DNA of 64,000 nucleotides from a phage. The notes beneath the pieces were generated by a model. The model ran no database searches, was not told the origin of the DNA, and saw only the letters and a list, made by a program, of their open reading frames with translations. The stretch is taken from the sequence record PZ379176.1, one strand, 5' to 3'. This document shows positions 27,265 through 39,944 of this stretch, one piece after another; position 1 is the stretch's first letter; every line of letters begins with the position of its first letter. Both the position numbers and the translations under genes were made by a program.

Positions 27265-29055
27265 ATGTCAAAGATCATTTTGGGAGACACAGGTTGTAAG
27301 GAATGTATCTCTCATGGTCGTGATAAAACCCACAACCACATGATTCTCTTCCGTAACGAAGAGACTGGTGAGGAGTGGGGAAGTTGTAACCGTTGTGGGA
27401 ATTACGAAGTGTTCGAAAAGGGCACTACACCTACTCCAAACGAGAAGAAAGAGTTATCCCCTGAAGAGTTGAGAGAAGTCTTAGATGATTGCTTAGAGCT
27501 TCCTCAGGGTGAACTTACTCGCCGTTTAATCCCTAAAGCTGTATCAGAGCGGTTTGAGTGTCGTATTGGCCTCAGTCAAACTGATGGTCAGACACCAGAC
27601 AGTTACTTCTTTCCTCGTGAACGTGATGGAAACATTGTCGGATATGAGGTTAAGCTGCTAGATAGTAAGAAGTTCTATTACGTCGGCAGTGTTAAAGAAG
27701 CAGATTTGTTCGGTATGGCACAAGCCCAACGTGGAGATGTGTACAACAAGAAGCTCTTCATTTTTGAAGACCCGCTATCCTGTATGTCAGGTTTCCATGT
27801 CCTTACAGCTTTTACAAATGCAACAAACATTAAACCAGCATGTGTTTCTTTACCGTTCGGTGCAGGTTCAATCTCTTCTGTGTTGTCTCGTAATCGAGAC
27901 TTCGTAAACGGTTTTGAGGAGGTTGTGCTCTGCATGGACAACGATGATGCAGGTGAGATAGCTTTAACAAAAGGTCGTTCTTTATTCCCTCATGTTAAGT
28001 TTGCTCGTATTCCTAAAGGAACTTTCCCATACAACGGTGTGGAGAAAGAGATTAAGGATGCGAATGACATGCTTCTGTCTGGTCGTGGTCAAGAGTTATT
28101 CAACATTCTCAAATATTCAGCAAAGCGGGAATCTCCTGCTGGTGCTGTAACAATCTTTGATTGCCTTGATGATGCTCTGAAGAAAGCGGAGTGGGGTATT
28201 CCCTATCCGTGGAAAACTCTTAATGAGATGACCTTCGGTATTCGATGGGGAGAGGTGGTAGCAATTGGTGGTGGAGTAGGGAGTGGTAAAACACTCATTG
28301 CTCACGAGCTGGTTGCTCATCTGTGCTTAGAGCATGGTTTTAATGGAGGTGGCTTCTTCTTGGAAGAGAAGGTAGGCATGTCTGTTAAGAACATCGCTGG
28401 TAAGTCAGCATCAATTCCTTTCCACCGACCTGATGTTGAATATGATGAGGAGGATTTGCGTAATGAAGCACTTCGTTATGCAGACAAATTCTTCTTGTAT
28501 GACAACTTCGGACAGAACGAATGGGAAGACATTAAACAGTGTATACGTTTCTGGGTAGTTGAAAACCAGTGTAAGTTTATCATCCTTGATAACATTACCG
28601 CTCTGGTGTCTCATTTAACTCCTTCAGAGATTAACACTGAAATCAGTAAGATTGCTTCCGAGCTTGCTGGTATGTGCAAAGAATTAGACTTTACCGCTTT
28701 CGTTCTATCTCACCTTAATGCTCCGGCAGGTGGTGCTCCTCATGAAGAAGGTGGACAGGTACGTGAAGTACAGTTCACTGGCTCTCGTTCTCTTATGCGT
28801 TGGTGTCAGTGTATCATTGGCTTTGAGCGTGACAAGCAAGCTGACGGCTTAGCTAAGAACCTCTCAGTCATTCGATTACTGAAAGAACGTAACTACGGTC
28901 AGACAGGTGTCTGTTATACTAAGTATATCAGTGAAACCGGTAGACTTGTAGAAAGGGAAGACTTTGAAGTTGATGAAGATAATCCATTCGTTTTAACTAA
29001 CGGAGAGGATGCAGCTTCTCTCGTCAACCAAGCAGATGGAGCTTCACCGTGGTAA
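27265..29055 (+). CDS. T7 gp4-type DNA primase-helicase
   Basis: N-terminal zinc ribbon CKEC...CNRCG, TOPRIM-like middle, Walker [10 protein letters not shown] and DnaB-like helicase motifs. Confidence 0.85.
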
Positions 29056-29606
29056 AGAAAAAGAAGAAAGTGTTTGCATTCGATATCGAGAGTAATGCAC
29101 TGTACGATGACATAACTAAAGTATGGTGTATTTATATCTTTGATGTTGAAACTGGTGAAAGGTGGGGCTATCGGCCTCACCAAATTGAAGATGGGATTCG
29201 TAAACTTACAGAAGCAGATGTACTAGTGGGTCATAATATTATTGACTTCGACTTACCTGCTCTGAAAAAGATGTATCCTTCTTTGATTAAATATAATTTT
29301 AACGTCTTTGACACTTTATGTCTTAGTCGATATCTTAAACCTGACCGTATTGGTGACAGTCCTGAGTATCCGAAAGGCGACCCTAGACGTGGCCCAAGAG
29401 GTCATGGTTTGAAGCAATGGGGTGAGTTCTTAGAGGAACTTAAAGGTGACTACGGTGAGCAAGAGGAAGCATGGGATGCTTTCACTGAAGATATGTTTAC
29501 TTATTGTGAACAGGACGTTAACTTAACTGTTAAGGTTTATCTTTTCTTGTGTGAACTCACGGGATTTGACCCTTACGACCCACCTTCATTATATTGGAAA
29601 ATGTAA
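29049..29606 (+). CDS. DNA polymerase 3-prime to 5-prime exonuclease domain (T7 gp5-like N-terminal part) as separate ORF
   Basis: [10 protein letters not shown] and YRPHQ...[17 protein letters not shown] parallel the T7 gp5 N-terminus; GTG start overlaps primase-helicase stop. Confidence 0.8.
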
Positions 29607-30930: not shown

Positions 30931-31464
30931 ATGAGTTTACTAGGAAGTATTGAACTGCATGATGTAATTGACAATGGCTATCTGGATGCGGAGCATAAGT
31001 ATGTTAACGCTGCTAGTGTGGATATCCGTATTGGTGATACTATCCTTGTTGAAGAACAGGCTGATGGCATCGTTGATATTGATGCGAAAGAGAATCTTCA
31101 GTGGAAGGAAGTAAAGATTCCTGAAGAGGGTTTGGTTATCACTCCGGGTCAGTTCTTCTTGGCTCACTCTATGGAGGAGTTTAATCTTCCAGATAACATC
31201 TCAAGTCTGTTTGTTCTGCGTTCGTCTATGGCTCGTTGTGGTTTGAACCACCTTCACGCCGGTTGGGCAGATGCAGGATTTAATAGTAGTAAGCTGACAT
31301 TTGAATTCCATAACGTAACCAAGCACCACAGCTTACGAGTTCGTGCTGGTATGCGTGTTGGTCAGATGGTTATGTTTGAGCACTCTCATGCAGGGGAACA
31401 TTCCTACGCAGTGAAGGGTCGTTATAATAACTCTGAAGGTGTGGTTGCATCTAAAGGTGTGTAA
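30931..31464 (+). CDS. dcd: dCTP deaminase
   Basis: ASVDIRIGD and HAGWADAGF motifs typical of the dCTP deaminase/dUTPase fold. Confidence 0.7.
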   Translation: MSLLGSIELHDVIDNGYLDAEHKYVNAASVDIRIGDTILVEEQADGIVDIDAKENLQWKEVKIPEEGLVITPGQFFLAHSMEEFNLPDNISSLFVLRSSMARCGLNHLHAGWADAGFNSSKLTFEFHNVTKHHSLRVRAGMRVGQMVMFEHSHAGEHSYAVKGRYNNSEGVVASKGV

Positions 31465-31662
31465 ATGAAAAAGTGGATTGTTCGTGTACATGATAACACG
31501 ACTGGAGAGTTAGTAGCTGTAGATTTTGTTAAGACTCGAGAGCACGCACGTAGGGTCAAAAATCAATACAAGTCTACTTTTAGACTTAATAAGGTTACAC
31601 TAGGAAAAGCTATCGTGAATAGTGAAGGTGCTTTTTGTGTCAACAGTAAGGTTTATTACTAA
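31465..31662 (+). CDS. small protein, tandem paralog 1 of 3
   Basis: 65 aa ending in YY; similar to next two ORFs. Confidence 0.45.
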   Translation: MKKWIVRVHDNTTGELVAVDFVKTREHARRVKNQYKSTFRLNKVTLGKAIVNSEGAFCVNSKVYY

Positions 31663-31871
31663 TGAGACCAATCACTATGAGAAAATTCTGGTTAGCGAAG
31701 ATTAAGTGGGCATCAGGTGGTATGACTATGACTGCACTCCCTACTCGTCAACAAGCTCGAGATTTTAAAAAGACTATGCTTACTGGTGACGTGGTTAATA
31801 GTATCAGCATCCATAAGGCCAAGGAGTATTCTTCTGGTCGTGTTTATATCAGCGGAAAGGTACATTACTAA
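31662..31871 (+). CDS. small protein, tandem paralog 2 of 3
   Basis: 69 aa ending in HY; TAATG overlap. Confidence 0.45.
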   Translation: MRPITMRKFWLAKIKWASGGMTMTALPTRQQARDFKKTMLTGDVVNSISIHKAKEYSSGRVYISGKVHY

Positions 31872-32080
31872 TGAAAAAGATGTGGGCTATTCATGTTGTT
31901 TGGGATCTTGAGCAACACATGAGAAAAGATAACATCAAATTGTTTGACACTCGCAAAGAGGCTCGTATTGCTAAGAAACAGTTGAAGACTCTGGGCACAA
32001 TAGTAAAAAGCGCTGACATACATCGCTGGTATGAAGACCCTAACACTGGTTCTTTTATGTCTAAAGTAATTTACTACTGA
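31871..32080 (+). CDS. small protein, tandem paralog 3 of 3
   Basis: 69 aa ending in YY; TAATG overlap. Confidence 0.45.
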   Translation: MKKMWAIHVVWDLEQHMRKDNIKLFDTRKEARIAKKQLKTLGTIVKSADIHRWYEDPNTGSFMSKVIYY

Positions 32081-32152: not shown

Positions 32153-32482
32153 ATGTTAGATTTGAGTAAAGTGGCCCCGCCCACTGAAGAGATTACAAAA
32201 TCCAAGGTGATGCAACAGTTTTATCATCGTGATATGCTTGGTCGCTTTATCAAGAATCGTGATGTTGTTGCTTGGTCTATTGGTAATCAGGGATATCTGT
32301 TGAAGGTTCTTCAGGTTACAGGTTCAACTGCTAAGCGAGTTAAGGTGTATGACCCTGAAATGGGGCGTTCTAAGTCAGTAGACCCACAGAACTGCATCGT
32401 AATTACCCAGCAGGTAATGGATAATATTGCACGTAACGTTGCTAACTCAGTTGAACTTGATGGAGAAAACCCAAATGCATAA
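32153..32482 (+). CDS. hypothetical protein (109 aa)
   Basis: ORF track; SD GGAGAGAG. Confidence 0.45.
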   Translation: MLDLSKVAPPTEEITKSKVMQQFYHRDMLGRFIKNRDVVAWSIGNQGYLLKVLQVTGSTAKRVKVYDPEMGRSKSVDPQNCIVITQQVMDNIARNVANSVELDGENPNA

Positions 32483-33038
32483 GAATGTTTTTGATTTACC
32501 TGAGATTGGTCGTGACAGCTATAGCATGTTAGACCGGTCCGACCTATCAATCTCTCGCCTTGAAACAATGCAAGGCATGATTAGTGGAAACAGCCTAGAA
32601 CACATCCTGAGCTGCTTACAAGCTAACATGGAACTCTTGCATATCAAAGCTAAAAACTACCACTGGAACGTCTCTGGTGCAGGATTTCAGGGTGTTCATG
32701 GTATGTTTGATGAGCTGGAAGATTACGCACGACAGGTAGGAGATCGTATTGCTGAACGTATGCGTTACCACTGTGTTAAAGTGGATGCTACAGCAGCTAA
32801 TTATCTTTCTCATGCTTGGTTCTCAGAGGGGAATGCTGATCTAGACATGGACGGTATGCTCTCTGATATGTGCATGACCTTGATGTGTATTATTGAGAAG
32901 ATGGATGAGTTTGATGGTGATTTAGCCTCCTACCCTGTCGATCAGAGTATGCTTCAAGAAATTAATGAAGGTCTTGGCAAGTATTGCTACTTCGTCAAGA
33001 GCAACATGTCCCATTCAAGTGGTGACGTGTCTTACTAA
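32460..33038 (+). CDS. Dps-like ferritin-superfamily protein
   Basis: LQANMELLHIKAKNYHWNVSGAGFQGVHGMFDELEDY...DRIAER matches the Dps core signature; start at 32460 or 32475. Confidence 0.6.
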   Translation: MEKTQMHKNVFDLPEIGRDSYSMLDRSDLSISRLETMQGMISGNSLEHILSCLQANMELLHIKAKNYHWNVSGAGFQGVHGMFDELEDYARQVGDRIAERMRYHCVKVDATAANYLSHAWFSEGNADLDMDGMLSDMCMTLMCIIEKMDEFDGDLASYPVDQSMLQEINEGLGKYCYFVKSNMSHSSGDVSY

Positions 33039-33098
33039 AACCTCCGCCCTGTCTCCTAACCCGAGGTGGGGCGAACTTATTTATAAGGATATAGATAT

Positions 33099-33278
33099 AT
33101 GTTATCAGCAATCGTATGGGGTATTTGGGCTATCTTTATCGGTGGTGGTATTTATTGGGCTTCTGGTAAGCTTATTGAAGAAACTCCTGATAAGAAAGGT
33201 GAGATTCAAACAGCATCAACCATCATGGTTATCGTAGCTGTTGTTATCCCATTCCTGCTTCACCTCCTGACTGCATAA
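33099..33278 (+). CDS. small membrane protein (59 aa, two hydrophobic segments)
   Basis: ATG after AAGGA; below track cut-off. Confidence 0.3.
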   Translation: MLSAIVWGIWAIFIGGGIYWASGKLIEETPDKKGEIQTASTIMVIVAVVIPFLLHLLTA

Positions 33279-33286
33279 GGATTTAC

Positions 33287-33562
33287 ATGTCTAAAGTAAT
33301 TAAGTTTTATAGTGATCAGTGTGCTCCATGTAAAGCAATGGCTCCTACCTTTGAGAAGGTTGTTAAGGAGTTTGATGTAGAAGTGGAAGAGATTAACATC
33401 CTTGAAGGTGATGGTCGTGAACAAGCTGTTAAGTATGGTGTACGAAGCATCCCTGCTTTTGTTGTGCCTGACCGTAACAGTGGTGCACACTACAGCCTCT
33501 CCGGTATGCAGACTGAAGCAAACCTGAAAGCATTTTTGGACACAGCCCTGAGAAATAAGTAA
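33287..33562 (+). CDS. thioredoxin-like protein
   Basis: Active site CAPCK and cis-Pro-like SIPAF in thioredoxin-fold spacing. Confidence 0.7.
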   Translation: MSKVIKFYSDQCAPCKAMAPTFEKVVKEFDVEVEEINILEGDGREQAVKYGVRSIPAFVVPDRNSGAHYSLSGMQTEANLKAFLDTALRNK

Positions 33563-33577
33563 TAAGGATATTCACGG

Positions 33578-34234
33578 ATGAATGAACAACTACAAGCAAC
33601 ATTAATCGAAGCTATGGGAAGTGATCGTAGCGTAGTAAACGCAGCTCGAGTTTCCTTTGGCGTAACCCGTGAAGGTGATTTAAATGAACGTGATGAACGT
33701 CTCATCAACTTCCTCGCAAGAGAGAAGCATGTTACCCCATTCCGACACCCGCAAGTCAGTTTCCGATGCAAAGCACCTATCGCAATTGCAAGACAGTTGG
33801 GCAAGCATCAGGTTGGATTCTCGTGGAACGAAATGTCCCGGCGGTATAAAGATGGAGCAGTTGAAGTCTTCATCCCTAAAGAGATTTTTGCGAGACCTTC
33901 GGACCTCCATGCAGGTTCAGGGATTCAACTCATCGACGGAGAGCGAGCTGAAGCATTAATGTTAATTAACGATGCATATGAAGCTTCTCTAGCAGCATAT
34001 GACAAGTTGATTGAGTTTATTGCACCAGAGCAAGCTCGATTTGTTCTTCCTCAGGGGATGATCACTGAGTGGGTGTGGACCGGTTCTTTGTATGGCTGGT
34101 TTGAGTTGTGTCGTCAGCGACTCTCCTCTCACGCTCAATATGAAGTTCGAGTGTTTGCTAAATCTGTAGACGAAGAGATGTCTAAGATCTACCCAATCTC
34201 GTGGGCAGCTCTGAAGAAAACATTGGAGATTTAA
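33578..34234 (+). CDS. thyX: ThyX-like flavin-dependent thymidylate synthase homolog with divergent signature
   Basis: FRHPQVSF...LGKHQVGFSWNEMSRRY resembles the ThyX RHR-x7-S-x-RY region but has KHQ where RHR is expected. Confidence 0.55.
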   Translation: MNEQLQATLIEAMGSDRSVVNAARVSFGVTREGDLNERDERLINFLAREKHVTPFRHPQVSFRCKAPIAIARQLGKHQVGFSWNEMSRRYKDGAVEVFIPKEIFARPSDLHAGSGIQLIDGERAEALMLINDAYEASLAAYDKLIEFIAPEQARFVLPQGMITEWVWTGSLYGWFELCRQRLSSHAQYEVRVFAKSVDEEMSKIYPISWAALKKTLEI

Positions 34235-34380
34235 TATTGGAAGAAGATGACGACGTGTTCTGTACCAAGTGCGGAATGACAGTGGATGATGCATATGACC
34301 CAAGTGTAGAAATTTGTCCATGTTGCGGGGTATGTGAGTATTGCTGTTCTCATAATCCAGAGGATTAGCAGGAATTTCTG

Positions 34381-34614
34381 ATGAAAATCAAACATATTAC
34401 AGATATTCAGGAGGCATTTAGGATGCTTCCTCGAAGAGAGAAGGATAAGATTAAAAAGCTTATTCAAGTTTATGGTCATACATCTAAAGATGATGTAGAC
34501 TATATGCCTTCTACTTTCGTAGAGTGTGGGATTGCTCGCGGTTTCACATTCGACCATAAAGTATTTCAGCAATTCGTTGACCACTGGAGAAAAGATGGAA
34601 AAGAAAGTCTGTAG
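34381..34614 (+). CDS. hypothetical small protein
   Basis: ORF track. Confidence 0.4.
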   Translation: MKIKHITDIQEAFRMLPRREKDKIKKLIQVYGHTSKDDVDYMPSTFVECGIARGFTFDHKVFQQFVDHWRKDGKESL

Positions 34615-34780
34615 CTTCTGTAAGAAAGAGAAACCTATCGCCAACTTCAAACCTAACCCTGTAACCGGTCTGACCCATGTCATGTGCCACTCTTGCAGGA
34701 TATATCTTGAAACAAAGCACACTATCAATAGGTTGCACTATTATCACCCAACAACATTCAAATTTAAGGTTGTGAAATGA
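34595..34780 (+). CDS. small zinc-ribbon-like protein
   Basis: CSFC...CHSC; ATG at 34595 in track frame. Confidence 0.4.
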   Translation: MEKKVCSFCKKEKPIANFKPNPVTGLTHVMCHSCRIYLETKHTINRLHYYHPTTFKFKVVK

Positions 34781-35100
34781 TTGACAGTAATACATTTAGG
34801 ACTTCAAATGGAAGTGAAATAAGTCCCGCTGAAGTAATCAATCGGCATAGAAGGCAATTGATCATCCATTCCTATTTGTATTACTGGTTGGATGACCCTA
34901 TCTGGTCTGATGATAAATGGCAACAAGTTGCTAATGATCTAGTGGAGCTGCAAGCTCTGTATCCAGAACCTACTGGAGTCTTTGACAACGAGTTTAAAGA
35001 TTGGGATGGTTCTACAGGTATGCATCTCCCACATAACGAAGCTGTTGCTTGTATGGCGACAGCTGTTTACAGACTTCATAAAGAGGTTAACGTCGCATGA
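34777..35100 (+). CDS. hypothetical protein (107 aa)
   Basis: ORF track; ATGA overlap. Confidence 0.45.
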   Translation: MIDSNTFRTSNGSEISPAEVINRHRRQLIIHSYLYYWLDDPIWSDDKWQQVANDLVELQALYPEPTGVFDNEFKDWDGSTGMHLPHNEAVACMATAVYRLHKEVNVA

Positions 35101-35297
35101 GCGTAGTTTATGTTCTAGAAAGATACGCTGAAGATCACAACAGTATTGTTGCCATATTTAAACATGCCCCGGATGTTGAGGACATTTTGAATGTGACTCA
35201 CTTAACTGATGTTGATAAAATCAAAGACCTCATCAGGAATGACAATGCCCACATAGGTGACTCTCTGTGGTCTCTTACTGAATGGACATTGTGGTGA
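35097..35297 (+). CDS. hypothetical small protein
   Basis: ORF track; overlap. Confidence 0.4.
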   Translation: MSVVYVLERYAEDHNSIVAIFKHAPDVEDILNVTHLTDVDKIKDLIRNDNAHIGDSLWSLTEWTLW

Positions 35298-35479
35298 AGT
35301 GCTCTAAATGTGAAGGAACAAACCTTCATTTAAGTAACAAGGTTATCAGAGAGCTTGCTAAAGGCTCTCCAACCAAAGGGAAGAACAAACGATTTACTAA
35401 CGTCAGGGTTTATACAGCAATCTGTAAAGACTGCTTAACTACTGAGTGTCATTACGAAGAAATTGGAGAGCGTAAATGA
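35282..35479 (+). CDS. small zinc-ribbon-like protein
   Basis: CSKCEG...CKDC. Confidence 0.4.
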   Translation: MDIVVKCSKCEGTNLHLSNKVIRELAKGSPTKGKNKRFTNVRVYTAICKDCLTTECHYEEIGERK

Positions 35480-38100: not shown

Positions 38101-39944
38101 GTGAGCAACCCGGACGCTCTTCCATTTTTGACAGAGATGACTGTCGCTGATATAATCTCTAAGCAAGCAAAGCACGGAGTGAGTTTCAACCGAAGAAATG
38201 CTCGGTGGTATGTTCACCTCCTTAAAGAGATTATTGTTAATATTGACAGAGAGTTGATTCCTCTCTTACCTAAGATGAGATTAGATGGCTCTACTTACAT
38301 GAAGCCATTTAAGAAGTCTGGAGCTTTACAGAAGTGGCCTCAAGCCTATTGTGATAGGGTTGGGCTGAAAAGAGAAGATATTGGTGGAGCTTTCACCTGC
38401 GTCGAATACGTAGACTTTGACCCATCGAAAGATGCACGAGTTAAAGAAGCTCTTATGGATGAGGGTTTTCTTCCTCCAGAGTTTAACGTATCTAAGAAGC
38501 CTTGGAATACTTTCGAAATTAAGAAAGATATGCGAAAGTATGGAACATACCAAGCATGGTATACTGCTTGGATGCGAGGTAATGCTAAGCAAAAGCAGAC
38601 AGCCGAGATGGTTGACGCTGATATTAAGAAGTTCTTAGAAAAGCATTTCAGGTTTAAAACTAAGAACTATATGAAGGCTTACGTATTTGGTTTGGGATTA
38701 AACCCGAATCGCCGTAATCCTGTAACGTTTGATGAGATTAAGAAAGCACTAGCCACATCAAACAAGTGGCCTACAGCTCCTACAAACCTCGAGGAGACTC
38801 TTGAAGAAGGGTTAGGGGTGAGCTAGGGAGTGTCGGAAGTTTGCTTAAGAGACGCGTTGTAGCGGCTCACAGGCTAGGTCTTATCAGTGGACTCATAGCA
38901 AAGGAACGCGAAGATGGTAAACTTTCGGCAGAAGCTAACAGCTGCGCTACGCCGACTTTTCGATTCAAACATCGTATCGTGGTTAATATTCCCTCCCGTG
39001 GTCTGTTTGGTCACGAGTGTCGCAGTTTGTTTGAGTCTGACTATAACTCAGACAGTGATCACTCTCGTCCTTTCGTTATTACTAACGTTGTTCCTGATGG
39101 TTGTTATATACGAAAAGGTACTAACGTAATTTACGAGAAAGGTAAGCCGGGGAAGAAAGATAAACCTATAGGTGCTTACAAATATTACATACCCGCTGGT
39201 AAAGAAGTATTCTTAGGGTATGATGGTTCTGGACTTGAACTTCGTATGCTCGCTCACTACCTCATTAAAGAGTGTAGGGATATGCTTGCTGAGGCAATTG
39301 AAGAGAACAACCCAGCTAAGAAAGCTCTGGCAGAACGTGGTTTAGCTTCTGCTATTATGTATCGTGATATTCTCCTTGAAGGTGATATCCACTCCCACAA
39401 CCAGAAACTTGCTGGTCTTCCTACTCGTGACAACGCTAAGACGTTTATCTACGCATTCAACTATGGTGCTGGTGATGCTAAGCTTGGTTCAATTGTAGGT
39501 GGTGGGGCTGACGAAGGTTCAGTGATGCGAGCACGTTTCTTAGCAGAGAACCCATGTATTGCAATCCTCATTGATCGTATGACAGAGAAAGCTGCTCAAG
39601 GATACTTGATTGGAGTTGATGGTCGTAAGATTACAATGAGACGGGATGCCACTGGTAAGGTTATGGTTCATAAAGCCCTTAACACACTCCTGCAATGTGC
39701 TGGTGCTGTTGTTATGAAATATGCTATGATGTTCCTTAACAAGTGGATTGAGAAAGATAAGGTTCGTTGTGCTAAGGTAATTGATATGCACGATGAAGGT
39801 CAATTCTCAGTAAACCGTAATGATGTACAGAAACTCAAAGAGCACACCGAGCTTTGTGTTAAGAAAGCTGGCGAGTATCTGAATATGGAATGTCCTCTGG
39901 CATCTGATTGTCAGATTGGACTTAACTGGATGCATACACACTAA
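38101..39944 (+). CDS. DNA polymerase, polymerase domain (T7 gp5-like palm/fingers), interrupted by a frame break near 38805-38826
   Basis: SKQAKHGVSFN; EDGK...FRFKHRIVVNIPSRGLFGHECRSLF; DGSGLELRMLAHY; LPTRDNAKTFIYAFNYGAGDAKLG; MHDEGQF parallel T7 gp5; GTG start with SD AAAGGAG. Confidence 0.8.

What the first reader, a model, noticed from the sequence alone, without database searches (positions are those of the whole stretch)
33287..33562. Phage thioredoxin alongside a T7-type polymerase: candidate self-supplied processivity factor
T7 DNA polymerase uses host thioredoxin as its processivity subunit. This genome has a T7-type polymerase and its own 91-aa thioredoxin (CAPCK) in the replication gene region, with no ribonucleotide reductase visible in the window. 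The thioredoxin may have been recruited as a dedicated polymerase partner.
Basis: inference. Interest (0 to 1): 0.45.

Follow-up and report, generated by a model that had tools for sequence, protein, structure and literature searches.

The report
Kuravirus phage thioredoxin, function unproven
The window comes from a phiEco32/SU10-type coliphage that encodes a small thioredoxin and a T7-type DNA polymerase but no ribonucleotide reductase; the idea that the thioredoxin clamps the polymerase is already published, and comparison with related phages fits a redox enzyme of the nucleotide-supply genes better.

Summary
ORF 33287-33562 (+) encodes a 91-aa thioredoxin: Pfam E 2e-13, motif CAPC, cis-proline kept, AF2 pLDDT 93, TM 0.80 to E. 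coli TrxA. It lacks TrxA's first ~21 residues. The window is a Kuravirus (phiEco32/SU10-like). Its split family-A polymerase is closest to T7 gp5, and neither the window nor the complete SU10 genome has a ribonucleotide reductase.

Corban and Ramsey (2021) proposed it for this phage group, and it remains untested.

My tests cut both ways. The polymerase has a thumb insert where T7 has its thioredoxin-binding domain, and its C-terminal half aligns with T7 323-333. But the same insert is equally conserved in relatives with no thioredoxin (Vibrio phage Vp_R1, LUZ24-like phages). The thioredoxin sits beside dCTP deaminase, a Dps-like protein and ThyX, and near RNR genes in larger relatives. Its redox residues are invariant in 57 homologs. 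In cyanophage Syn5, a similar truncated phage thioredoxin proved redox-active, and structure prediction placed the host's thioredoxin, not the phage's, on the polymerase.

Most likely it is a redox-active reductant supporting dNTP supply or redox protection (about 0.45). A processivity role is not excluded (about 0.2). This is a known gene with an open function and modest interest.

The parts
33287..33562 (+). Phage thioredoxin, 91 aa, active-site CAPC (residues 12-15), cis-Pro at residue 56. It lacks the N-terminal strand and helix of bacterial TrxA.
32475..33038 (+). Dps-like (ferritin-fold) protein, 187 aa, homolog of SU10 gp067. It is the thioredoxin's conserved neighbour in C3-type phages.
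   Evidence: Pfam Ferritin E 2.9e-7. NCBIfam Dps hits lie below cut-off. PHROG 3636 E 3.7e-55. Synteny.
33099..33278 (+). 59-aa hydrophobic ORF (two predicted transmembrane stretches) between the Dps-like gene and the thioredoxin gene. Function unknown.
   Evidence: sequence. PHROG 9296 E 3.6e-34. Annotated as a hypothetical protein in SU10.
33578..34234 (+). Flavin-dependent thymidylate synthase ThyX. It starts 15 nt after the thioredoxin stop codon.
   Evidence: Pfam Thy1 E 8.5e-44. Sequence.
30931..31464 (+). dCTP deaminase.
   Evidence: Pfam DCD E 3.6e-34.
29049..29606 (+). Separate 3'-5' exonuclease subunit of the split family-A polymerase.
   Evidence: Pfam DNA_pol_A_exo1 E 2e-8. SU10 annotation.
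27265..29055 (+). T7 gp4-like primase/helicase.
   Evidence: Pfam DnaB_C and Toprim_2.
38101..39944 (+). Polymerase subunit of the T7-type family-A DNA polymerase (614 aa in relatives). Here it reads as two ORFs because of a 1-nt deletion near 38814.
38257..38415 (+). Codes for polymerase residues 53-105, the thumb insert at the position of T7 gp5's thioredoxin-binding domain. It aligns with T7 283-333; residue T99 aligns with T7 T327.
   Evidence: MAFFT and hhalign. The AF2 model shows it ordered (strand 59-66, helix 78-87, strand 98-104; pLDDT about 88-92).
33045..33073 (+). Terminator-like GC-rich hairpin between the Dps-like gene and the 59-aa ORF and thioredoxin gene.
   Evidence: Consensus scan only. 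Sequence.

Best explanation
The gene encodes a redox-active mini-thioredoxin of a phage-specific lineage. It is made with the middle (replication and nucleotide-metabolism) genes.

Inferred mechanism: host thioredoxin reductase (TrxB) and NADPH keep it reduced, and it passes electrons to disulfide-dependent enzymes that limit phage DNA synthesis. In a Kuravirus, which has no RNR of its own, the most likely client is the host class Ia ribonucleotide reductase NrdAB. That enzyme feeds the phage's own dCTP deaminase, ThyX and dNMP kinase route to dTTP. A secondary role in peroxide or disulfide-stress protection alongside the neighbouring Dps-like protein is possible.

Shown here: the fold, the intact CxPC / cis-Pro / Gly active-site set, its invariance in the family, the gene neighbourhood, and the lack of co-inheritance with the polymerase. 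Inferred: redox activity, recycling by TrxB, and the identity of the clients. A parallel contact with the polymerase thumb is not excluded.
For: 1. It is a thioredoxin in sequence and predicted fold.
2. In 57 short phage thioredoxins, down to about 28% identity, the only invariant positions are C12, P14, C15, the cis-Pro P56 and G73. K16, P20 and R53 are nearly invariant. This is the catalytic set of thioredoxins.
3. The neighbourhood is conserved among the thioredoxin-encoding C3-type phages. The gene sits within about 2 kb of dCTP deaminase, the Dps-like gene and, where present, ThyX. This holds for Kuravirus, Salmonella phage 7-11, Proteus phage Privateer, which also has NrdA/NrdB and an NrdD-like gene, and metagenomic relatives L009 (ferritin-Trx-ThyX plus NrdD/NrdG), L010 and L014.
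4. Relatives that lack this thioredoxin can carry another small redoxin in a nucleotide-metabolism setting. L096 has a glutaredoxin directly upstream of NrdA/NrdB. L095 has a 70-aa CGPC mini-redoxin shortly downstream of the dUTPase/DCD gene.
5. LUZ24-like phages share the replication backbone but lack the whole nucleotide-metabolism block and also lack thioredoxin.
6. SU10 proteomics detected the thioredoxin at 52.8% coverage and the Dps-like protein at 35.8%, against 6.7% for the polymerase (PMC4281155). This is a weak hint that the thioredoxin is far more abundant than the polymerase.
7. Precedent in Syn5: the phage thioredoxin is also N-terminally truncated, is redox-active and raises genome replication. 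AlphaFold3 places the host thioredoxins, not the phage one, on the polymerase (bioRxiv 10.1101/2025.10.05.680603).
Against: - Kuravirus has no RNR. The usual phage client is missing, and the host already supplies TrxA and Grx1 for NrdAB, so the benefit of an extra thioredoxin is assumed rather than shown.
- RNR-bearing relatives can lack thioredoxin. Vp_R1 lacks it genome-wide, and L097 lacks it within 10 kb upstream of the polymerase. The link to dNTP genes is therefore not strict either.
- The protein deviates from canonical TrxA. E. coli D26 is Lys here, K57 is Glu, and W28 and W31 are replaced. It scores below NCBIfam's thioredoxin equivalog cut-off, 49 against 96.8 bits.
- No activity or interaction was measured.
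- Conserved cysteines do not exclude a structural role. From my recollection of Huber et al. 1986, Cys mutants of TrxA still stimulate T7 polymerase but bind more weakly.
Confidence: 0.45

Rival explanations
1. Self-supplied processivity factor. The phage thioredoxin binds the thumb insert of the split T7-type polymerase, as E. coli TrxA binds T7 gp5 residues 258-333, and locks the enzyme onto primer-template. This would make replication independent of host TrxA. It could act alone or alongside a redox role.
For: - The polymerase is T7-type by sequence, profile and fold.
- It has an insert that Klenow lacks, at the same place as T7's thioredoxin-binding domain. Residues 95-105 (GGAFTCVEYVD) align with T7 323-333 (GAPYTPVEHVV), and T99 aligns with T7 T327.
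- GGPFT and the following F-D are nearly invariant in 85 polymerases of the clade.
- The four other sequenced C3 phages compared in the SU10 paper have both genes (PMC4281155; PMC7881722).
- The gene lies between the two polymerase subunits, within the replication block.
- G92 (G73 here), R73 and the cis-Pro loop of TrxA are kept.
- No RNR is present to explain the gene otherwise.
Against: - The insert is just as conserved in phages with no thioredoxin. Identity of SU10 residues 53-105 is 47% to Vp_R1, 55% to L097 and 53% to L096, against 38% to P0047, whose 75,653-bp contig appears to carry the thioredoxin P0153 (inferred from matching contig lengths). There is no sign of co-evolution with a phage partner.
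- Vp_R1 genome-wide and LUZ24-like phages lack thioredoxin.
- The insert is about 25 residues shorter than T7's. Its N-terminal half does not align, and it is predicted as an ordered mini-domain rather than a loop that folds on binding.
- The clade has a further 110-residue basic helical thumb insert (pI 9.9) that could itself grip DNA.
- TrxA W31 is not conserved here. From my recollection it is an interface residue.
- Of 80 IMG/VR loci with T7-type polymerases, only 2 had a thioredoxin gene within the fetched flank (up to 10 kb).
- In Syn5 the authors judged the phage thioredoxin unlikely to be the clamp.
- E. coli already offers abundant TrxA.
Confidence: 0.2
2. Antioxidant pair with the Dps-like protein. 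The thioredoxin and the ferritin-fold Dps homolog together protect replicating phage DNA and iron- or flavin-dependent enzymes from peroxide and disulfide stress during infection. One possible source of such stress is the NADPH-oxidase side reaction of ThyX. The thioredoxin would feed host peroxiredoxins or methionine sulfoxide reductases.
For: - The thioredoxin and the Dps-like gene stay within about 2 kb of each other in Kuravirus, 7-11, Privateer, L009 and L010.
- The SU10 paper lists thioredoxin, the Dps-like protein and gp68 among the few middle genes shared by all five C3 phages.
- Both were abundant in SU10 proteomics.
- A phage thioredoxin was predicted to contact host MsrA in another system (PMC13291599).
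Against: - L097 and Vp_R1 keep a Dps-like gene without thioredoxin. For Vp_R1 this rests on its annotation alone ('starvation-inducible transcriptional regulator', gp105); I did not test homology.
- No peroxiredoxin or Msr gene is in the phage.
- No known biochemical link exists between Dps and thioredoxin.
- The idea rests on gene proximity alone.
Confidence: 0.15
3. Leftover of a lost RNR module. An ancestor had RNR plus thioredoxin, as Privateer or L009 have now. Kuravirus lost the RNR and carries the thioredoxin as a nearly neutral passenger.
For: Larger relatives combine the thioredoxin with NrdAB or NrdDG. Kuravirus genomes are smaller and lack RNR.
Against: - The gene matches at 95% identity or more in 74 phage records and is found in 124 in all.
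- The active site is invariant down to about 28% identity.
- The protein is expressed.
- It is retained in 7-11-like phages, which show no RNR in the sequence examined.
Confidence: 0.05

Closest known systems
E. coli thioredoxin 1 (TrxA), as in PDB 2TRX and 1T7P chain B
   Same: Thioredoxin fold (TM 0.80, about 2 A). 34% identity. C-x-P-C active site followed by Lys. Cis-Pro loop R-x-I-P. Gly equivalent to G92.
   Different: It lacks residues 1-21 (strand 1, helix 1). The motif is CAPC instead of CGPC. D26 becomes Lys and K57 becomes Glu (an apparent charge swap). W28 becomes Tyr and W31 becomes Gln. It scores below the NCBIfam thioredoxin equivalog cut-off. The closest cellular sequences found are only about 26-41% identical, consistent with a phage-specific lineage.
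N-terminally truncated phage thioredoxins, for example cyanophage Syn5 Trx (Tahan, Shitrit and Lindell, bioRxiv 10.1101/2025.10.05.680603)
   Same: Phage-encoded, missing about 20 N-terminal residues, CxPC conserved, located in the replication gene cluster of a phage with a T7-type polymerase. The same two hypotheses were debated: RNR reductant or processivity factor.
   Different: Syn5 encodes its own RNR; Kuravirus does not. Syn5's polymerase is a single chain with a T7-like binding domain, whereas here the polymerase is split and its insert is shorter. No experiments exist for the Kuravirus protein.
T7 gp5 - E. coli TrxA processivity complex
   Same: T7-type family-A polymerase. A thumb insert at the same position, with the motif around T7 T327 conserved. 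A gp4-like primase/helicase is present.
   Different: In T7 the thioredoxin is the host's, and the polymerase is one chain with its exonuclease. T7's binding domain is 76 residues (258-333; PMC3556154), against about 53 here. No binding is shown here, and relatives with the same insert have no phage thioredoxin.
Thioredoxin of C3-morphotype podophages (phiEco32 'thiol-disulfide isomerase and thioredoxin', SU10 gp65, Privateer gp070)
   Same: The same gene: 98.9% identical to the phiEco32 and SU10 proteins, in the same position. It has been annotated since the phiEco32 genome was deposited. The processivity hypothesis was stated in PMC7881722.
   Different: Nothing material. This window is another isolate of the same genus.

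Membership tests
Thioredoxin family (Pfam PF00085) | Score above the Pfam gathering threshold | tested here: met
   50.6 bits against a cut-off of 23.5, E 2.1e-13.
Thioredoxin family (Pfam PF00085) | Thioredoxin fold (central sheet flanked by helices) | tested here: met
   AF2 pLDDT 92.9, topology b-a-b-a-b-b-a. Foldseek top hits are E. coli TrxA, TM 0.80.
Thioredoxin family (Pfam PF00085) | C-x-x-C active site at the N-terminus of helix 2, plus a cis-proline loop | tested here: met
   CAPC at residues 12-15 and I55-P56. C12, P14, C15 and P56 are invariant in 57 homologs.
Canonical bacterial TrxA (NCBIfam TIGR01068 equivalog) | Equivalog score cut-off; full five-stranded fold with N-terminal strand 1 and helix 1; WCGPC; buried Asp26 | tested here: not met
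   49.2 bits against a cut-off of 96.8. Residues 1-21 are absent. The motif is QCAPC, and D26 is Lys.
Canonical bacterial TrxA (NCBIfam TIGR01068 equivalog) | Disulfide reductase activity recycled by thioredoxin reductase | not testable with these tools
   Needs an insulin or DTNB assay with TrxB and NADPH.
T7-type polymerase-thioredoxin processivity complex | Family-A polymerase of the T7 gp5 lineage | tested here: met
   phmmer 1.2e-32. hhalign E 8.5e-57. Foldseek E 3.6e-26.
T7-type polymerase-thioredoxin processivity complex | Thioredoxin-binding domain: an insert at the thumb tip between helices H and H1, homologous to T7 258-333 | tested here: inconclusive
   An insert is present at that position (residues 53-105). 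Its C-terminal part aligns with T7 323-333 with high confidence. The N-terminal half is not alignable and is about 25 residues shorter.
T7-type polymerase-thioredoxin processivity complex | Physical 1:1 binding of thioredoxin to the polymerase, with a gain in processivity | not testable with these tools
No multimer predictor is available here.
T7-type polymerase-thioredoxin processivity complex | If the partner is dedicated: co-inheritance of the phage thioredoxin with this polymerase type and insert | tested here: not met
   Vp_R1 (whole genome) and the LUZ24-like phages phiIBB-PAA2 and L017 have the polymerase and insert but no thioredoxin. Insert conservation is independent of thioredoxin presence.
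Phage redoxin serving a phage RNR (T4 NrdC type, Syn5 Trx) | Phage-encoded ribonucleotide reductase in the same genome | tested here: not met
   No NrdA/B/D/G, Grx or ATP-cone homolog in the window or in SU10. RNR genes are present in the relatives Privateer and L009.

The most novel reading that the evidence does not exclude
The Kuravirus thioredoxin is a dedicated, phage-encoded processivity subunit. It docks on the shortened thioredoxin-binding-domain homolog of a split T7-type replicase, giving a replisome independent of host TrxA. It may at the same time keep its redox activity to drive host NrdAB. Relatives without the gene (Vp_R1, LUZ24-like) would then use host thioredoxin on the same insert.
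Probability: 0.17. Interest if true: 0.55.

Novelty: already known. Interest (0 to 1): 0.28.

Why it matters
If the phage thioredoxin really were the polymerase clamp, it would be the first virus-encoded thioredoxin processivity factor. It would show that the T7 solution has been internalised by a phage, and it could yield a compact two- or three-protein processive polymerase for biotechnology.

If it is a redox enzyme, as the comparison suggests, the more interesting question is why a coliphage without RNR needs its own thioredoxin beside a Dps homolog and ThyX. That points to redox capacity, or host RNR reduction, being limiting during infection.

Either way the gene and the hypothesis are already in the literature. 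What is missing is a simple experiment.

Tried and rejected
1. AF2 of a thioredoxin-linker-polymerase fusion, to probe docking. In any case the tool returns no PAE or coordinates.
2. IMG/VR scan with the polymerase profile. It returned mostly marine T7-like polymerases. It was useful only to show that a thioredoxin gene near a T7-type polymerase is rare, 2 of 80 loci.
3. Scan of 185,579 reference genomes for the phage thioredoxin motif. It found only ordinary bacterial thioredoxins at about 26-41% identity, and no prophage or Trx-Dps operon lead.
4. Literature searches for a Kuravirus dependence on trxA and for the T7 interface residues (T327). Nothing was held. The statements about T327/Cys32 proximity and about W31 and G74/G92 in the interface therefore rest on my memory of Richardson and Holmgren laboratory papers.
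5. I considered that the Dps-like protein might be a minimal RNR R2-like subunit, given the stand-alone ATP-cone genes next to it in relatives. I rejected this: it matches Dps models and is too short for R2.
6. I considered ThyX as a thioredoxin client because the genes are 15 nt apart. No known chemistry supports this, and the adjacency is not conserved in 7-11 or Privateer.

Full report
**What the window is.** Region 30000-38000 matches about 100 phage records. The best are Escherichia phage FS2B (98.6%) and SkaterBoy_Bas90, MN03 and SU10 at about 96-98%. All are Kuravirus (Gordonclarkvirinae), the phiEco32/SU10 group of C3-morphotype podophages. The window's + strand is the reverse of the SU10 record. 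The roughly 13 kb of genome outside the window corresponds to SU10's terminase-to-endolysin block.

**The observation.** ORF 33287-33562 (+) starts at ATG with AAGGA 8 nt upstream, ends in TAA TAA, and encodes 91 aa.
- It matches Pfam Thioredoxin at E 2.1e-13 (50.6 bits, cut-off 23.5) and PHROG 22.
- Its best solved relatives are bacterial thioredoxins, including E. coli TrxA from the T7 polymerase complex.
- It is 34% identical to E. coli TrxA but begins at TrxA residue 22, so the first strand and helix are missing.
- The active site is CAPC, followed by Lys. The R-x-I-P cis-proline loop and the Gly equivalent to G92 are kept.
- AF2 gives pLDDT 92.9 with a four-stranded b-a-b-a-b-b-a fold. 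Foldseek's top hits are E. coli TrxA at TM 0.80.
- It stays below NCBIfam's thioredoxin equivalog cut-off, 49 against 96.8 bits.

**The polymerase.** It is split into two subunits.
- A 185-aa 3'-5' exonuclease subunit lies at 29049-29606, directly after a gp4-like primase/helicase (27265-29055).
- The polymerase subunit lies at 38101-39944.
- In this window the polymerase subunit reads as 241 + 367 aa because one G is missing from a G run near 38814. Otherwise the protein is identical to SU10's 614-aa protein.
- All 12 top-listed relatives carry the extra base.
- A second single-base deletion breaks the ATP-grasp gene at 25360. These are probably sequencing errors.
- The polymerase is T7-type. 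phmmer against PDB gives T7 gp5 1.2e-32 and Klenow 1.5e-6. hhalign gives probability 100 and E 8.5e-57 over T7 206-704. The AF2 model (pLDDT 91.9) matches T7 gp5 at E 3.6e-26, against about 1e-16 for Bst/Pol I.

**No RNR.** Searches with NrdA, NrdB, NrdD, NrdG, Grx and ATP-cone seeds found nothing in the window or in the whole SU10 genome. The SU10 annotation agrees.

**Is there a thioredoxin-binding domain?** T7's domain is residues 258-333 (as cited in PMC3556154).
- Alignment of 23 clade polymerases with T7 gp5 and Klenow shows an insert that Klenow lacks at the same place.
- In the MAFFT alignment, SU10 residues 53-105 correspond to T7 283-333, and T99 aligns with T7 T327.
- hhalign is confident for the stretch GGAFTCVEYVDFDPS / GAPYTPVEHVVFNPS. 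It is not confident for the N-terminal half, which is about 25 residues shorter.
- GGPFT and the following F-D are invariant or nearly so in 85 polymerases.
- In the AF2 model the insert is an ordered mini-domain: strand 59-66, helix 78-87, strand 98-104.
- The clade has three further inserts. One is a 110-residue basic (pI 9.9) helical insert in the thumb.
- A thioredoxin contact is therefore conceivable, but the element is not a close copy of T7's.

**Does the thioredoxin travel with the polymerase?** It does not.
- The closest polymerase relatives outside the C3 phages are the 'DNA polymerase part II' proteins of LUZ24-like Pseudomonas phages, about 40% identical, with the same insert.
- The complete genome of phiIBB-PAA2 has the same amidoligase / primase-helicase / exonuclease / polymerase backbone but no thioredoxin (best HMM E 2.6). 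It also has no dCTP deaminase, ThyX, Dps or RNR. The LUZ24-like locus L017 shows the same absence in the sequence fetched.
- Vibrio phage Vp_R1 (Grimontviridae, 112 kb) has the polymerase with the insert, plus NrdAB and ThyX. It has no thioredoxin anywhere in its genome.
- A 119-kb contig (L097) has DCD, NrdD/NrdG, ferritin and ATP-cone genes, but no thioredoxin within 10 kb upstream of its 601-aa polymerase.
- Identity of the insert between SU10 and these thioredoxin-less phages is 47-55%. That is no lower than the 38% to P0047, whose contig appears, from matching contig lengths, to carry a thioredoxin. There is no trace of co-evolution with a phage partner.
- In the phage database, 243 records hold a near full-length polymerase of this clade, but only 124 hold this thioredoxin.
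- Of 80 IMG/VR loci with T7-type polymerases, two had a thioredoxin gene within the fetched flank.

**What the thioredoxin does travel with.**
- In this window the order is dCTP deaminase (30931), small ORFs, Dps-like (32475-33038), 59-aa membrane ORF, thioredoxin, ThyX 15 nt downstream, then PhoH.
- In 7-11 and the metagenomic L010 and L014, the order is DCD, PhoH, Trx, ThyX; a ferritin-like gene follows in 7-11 and L010, and a stand-alone ATP-cone gene in L010 and L014.
- In Privateer the order is exonuclease, DCD, Trx, a hypothetical gene, Dps and an NrdD-like gene, with NrdA/NrdB about 6 kb upstream.
- In L009 the order is ferritin, Trx, ThyX, followed by NrdD and NrdG.
- L096 has no thioredoxin but has a glutaredoxin directly upstream of NrdA/NrdB.
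- L095 has a 70-aa CGPC mini-redoxin shortly downstream of its dUTPase/DCD gene.
- A 180-kb contig carries a related thioredoxin between a DCD/dUTPase gene and a 720-aa PolA, with ThyX further on.
- The gene therefore belongs to the nucleotide-supply and redox block inserted between the two polymerase subunits, not to the polymerase itself.

**State of the active site.** In 57 short phage thioredoxins, down to about 28% identity, only C12, P14, C15, P56 and G73 are invariant. K16, P20 and R53 are nearly so. The family differs from TrxA at the buried D26 (Lys here), at K57 (Glu), and at W28 and W31. The closest cellular sequences found are only about 26-41% identical, so this looks like a phage lineage.

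**Literature.**
- The SU10 paper lists the thioredoxin, the Dps-like protein and gp68 among the middle genes common to all five C3 phages. It detected the thioredoxin by mass spectrometry at 52.8% coverage, against 6.7% for the polymerase (PMC4281155).
- Privateer also has four RNR genes.
[quoted passage not shown] - AlphaFold3 puts the host thioredoxins, not the phage one, on the polymerase's binding domain.
  - They favour RNR reduction.
- I found no paper on Kuravirus growth on trxA hosts.

**Verdict.** The gene is a known, annotated thioredoxin of the phiEco32 group, and the hypothesis attached to it is already in print.
- The evidence gathered here makes a dedicated polymerase partner the less likely reading, about 0.2.
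- A redox-active reductant serving dNTP supply, probably through host NrdAB, with possible redox protection alongside Dps, is the more likely reading, about 0.45.
- The absence of any phage RNR keeps the question open.
- The step from 'redox-competent thioredoxin in the nucleotide block' to 'reduces host NrdAB' is inference.

Noticed in passing
window 38810-38816 (polymerase ORFs 38101-38826 and 38841-39944): One G is missing from a G run compared with SU10, and all 12 top-listed relatives carry it. The deletion splits the polymerase gene into 241-aa and 367-aa ORFs. It is probably a homopolymer sequencing error rather than a real pseudogene.
   Followed up: yes
window 25360 (ORFs 24927-25382 and 25409-26119): A second single-base deletion relative to SU10 splits the RimK-like ATP-grasp gene (SU10 gp082). 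There is also a 9-nt in-frame deletion near 25826. This supports the view that the assembly carries indel errors.
   Followed up: partly
window 29049-29606 and 38101-39944: The exonuclease and polymerase parts of the family-A replicase are separate genes 8.5 kb apart, with the nucleotide-metabolism block inserted between them. LUZ24-like phages have the same split with only about 2 kb between the two genes.
   Followed up: partly
window 38482-38811 (polymerase residues 128-237); also residues 312-370 and 388-425: The clade's polymerase has three further inserts that T7 gp5 and Klenow lack. One is a 110-residue basic (pI 9.9) helical insert in the thumb; it could be an intrinsic DNA-gripping element. 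The others are a palm insert and a fingers insert.
   Followed up: partly
window 38128-38156 (+): A perfect sigma-70 consensus (TTGACA, 17 nt, TATAAT, with extended TG) lies inside the 5' end of the polymerase ORF. Its function is unknown.
   Followed up: no
window 31465-32080 (+): Three tandem small ORFs (65, 69 and 69 aa) are paralogs. They are 22-27% identical and share W...TR..AR..K and a C-terminal Y. Function unknown.
   Followed up: partly
window 33099-33278 (+): A 59-aa ORF with two hydrophobic stretches is wedged between the Dps-like gene and the thioredoxin gene. It belongs to PHROG 9296, of unknown function.
   Followed up: no
window 33287-33562 (residues K6 and E35): In this phage thioredoxin family the buried Asp26 of E. 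coli TrxA is Lys, and its partner Lys57 is Glu. This is an apparent charge swap of the buried pair that tunes thioredoxin catalysis.
   Followed up: partly
window 19841-27045 (+): A cluster of COOH-NH2 ligase (19841-20647), amidoligase (21271-22374), glutamine amidotransferase (22793-24436), ATP-grasp, and gamma-glutamyl cyclotransferase (26626-27045). It is shared with LUZ24-like phages, Vp_R1 and Privateer. Its product is unknown.
   Followed up: partly
window 34201-35479 (+): A run of small ORFs follows ThyX. Several carry paired CxxC motifs that look like zinc ribbons, for example 34201-34368, 34526-34780 and 35282-35479.
   Followed up: no
L010 12487-12759, L014 3589-3879, L097 5817-6080, L006 13034-13330: Stand-alone ATP-cone proteins of about 90 aa sit near the ferritin-like gene and/or ThyX in several relatives; in Privateer the one at L006 13034-13330 is annotated 'ribonucleotide reductase'. 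Kuravirus has none.
   Followed up: partly
L098 47945-49916 (Vibrio phage Vp_R1): The Vp_R1 polymerase reading frame stops within its C-terminal catalytic motif (MHKQLCI* where relatives read MHDEGQ), and an HNH endonuclease gene follows. This suggests a mobile-element interruption of the gene.
   Followed up: no
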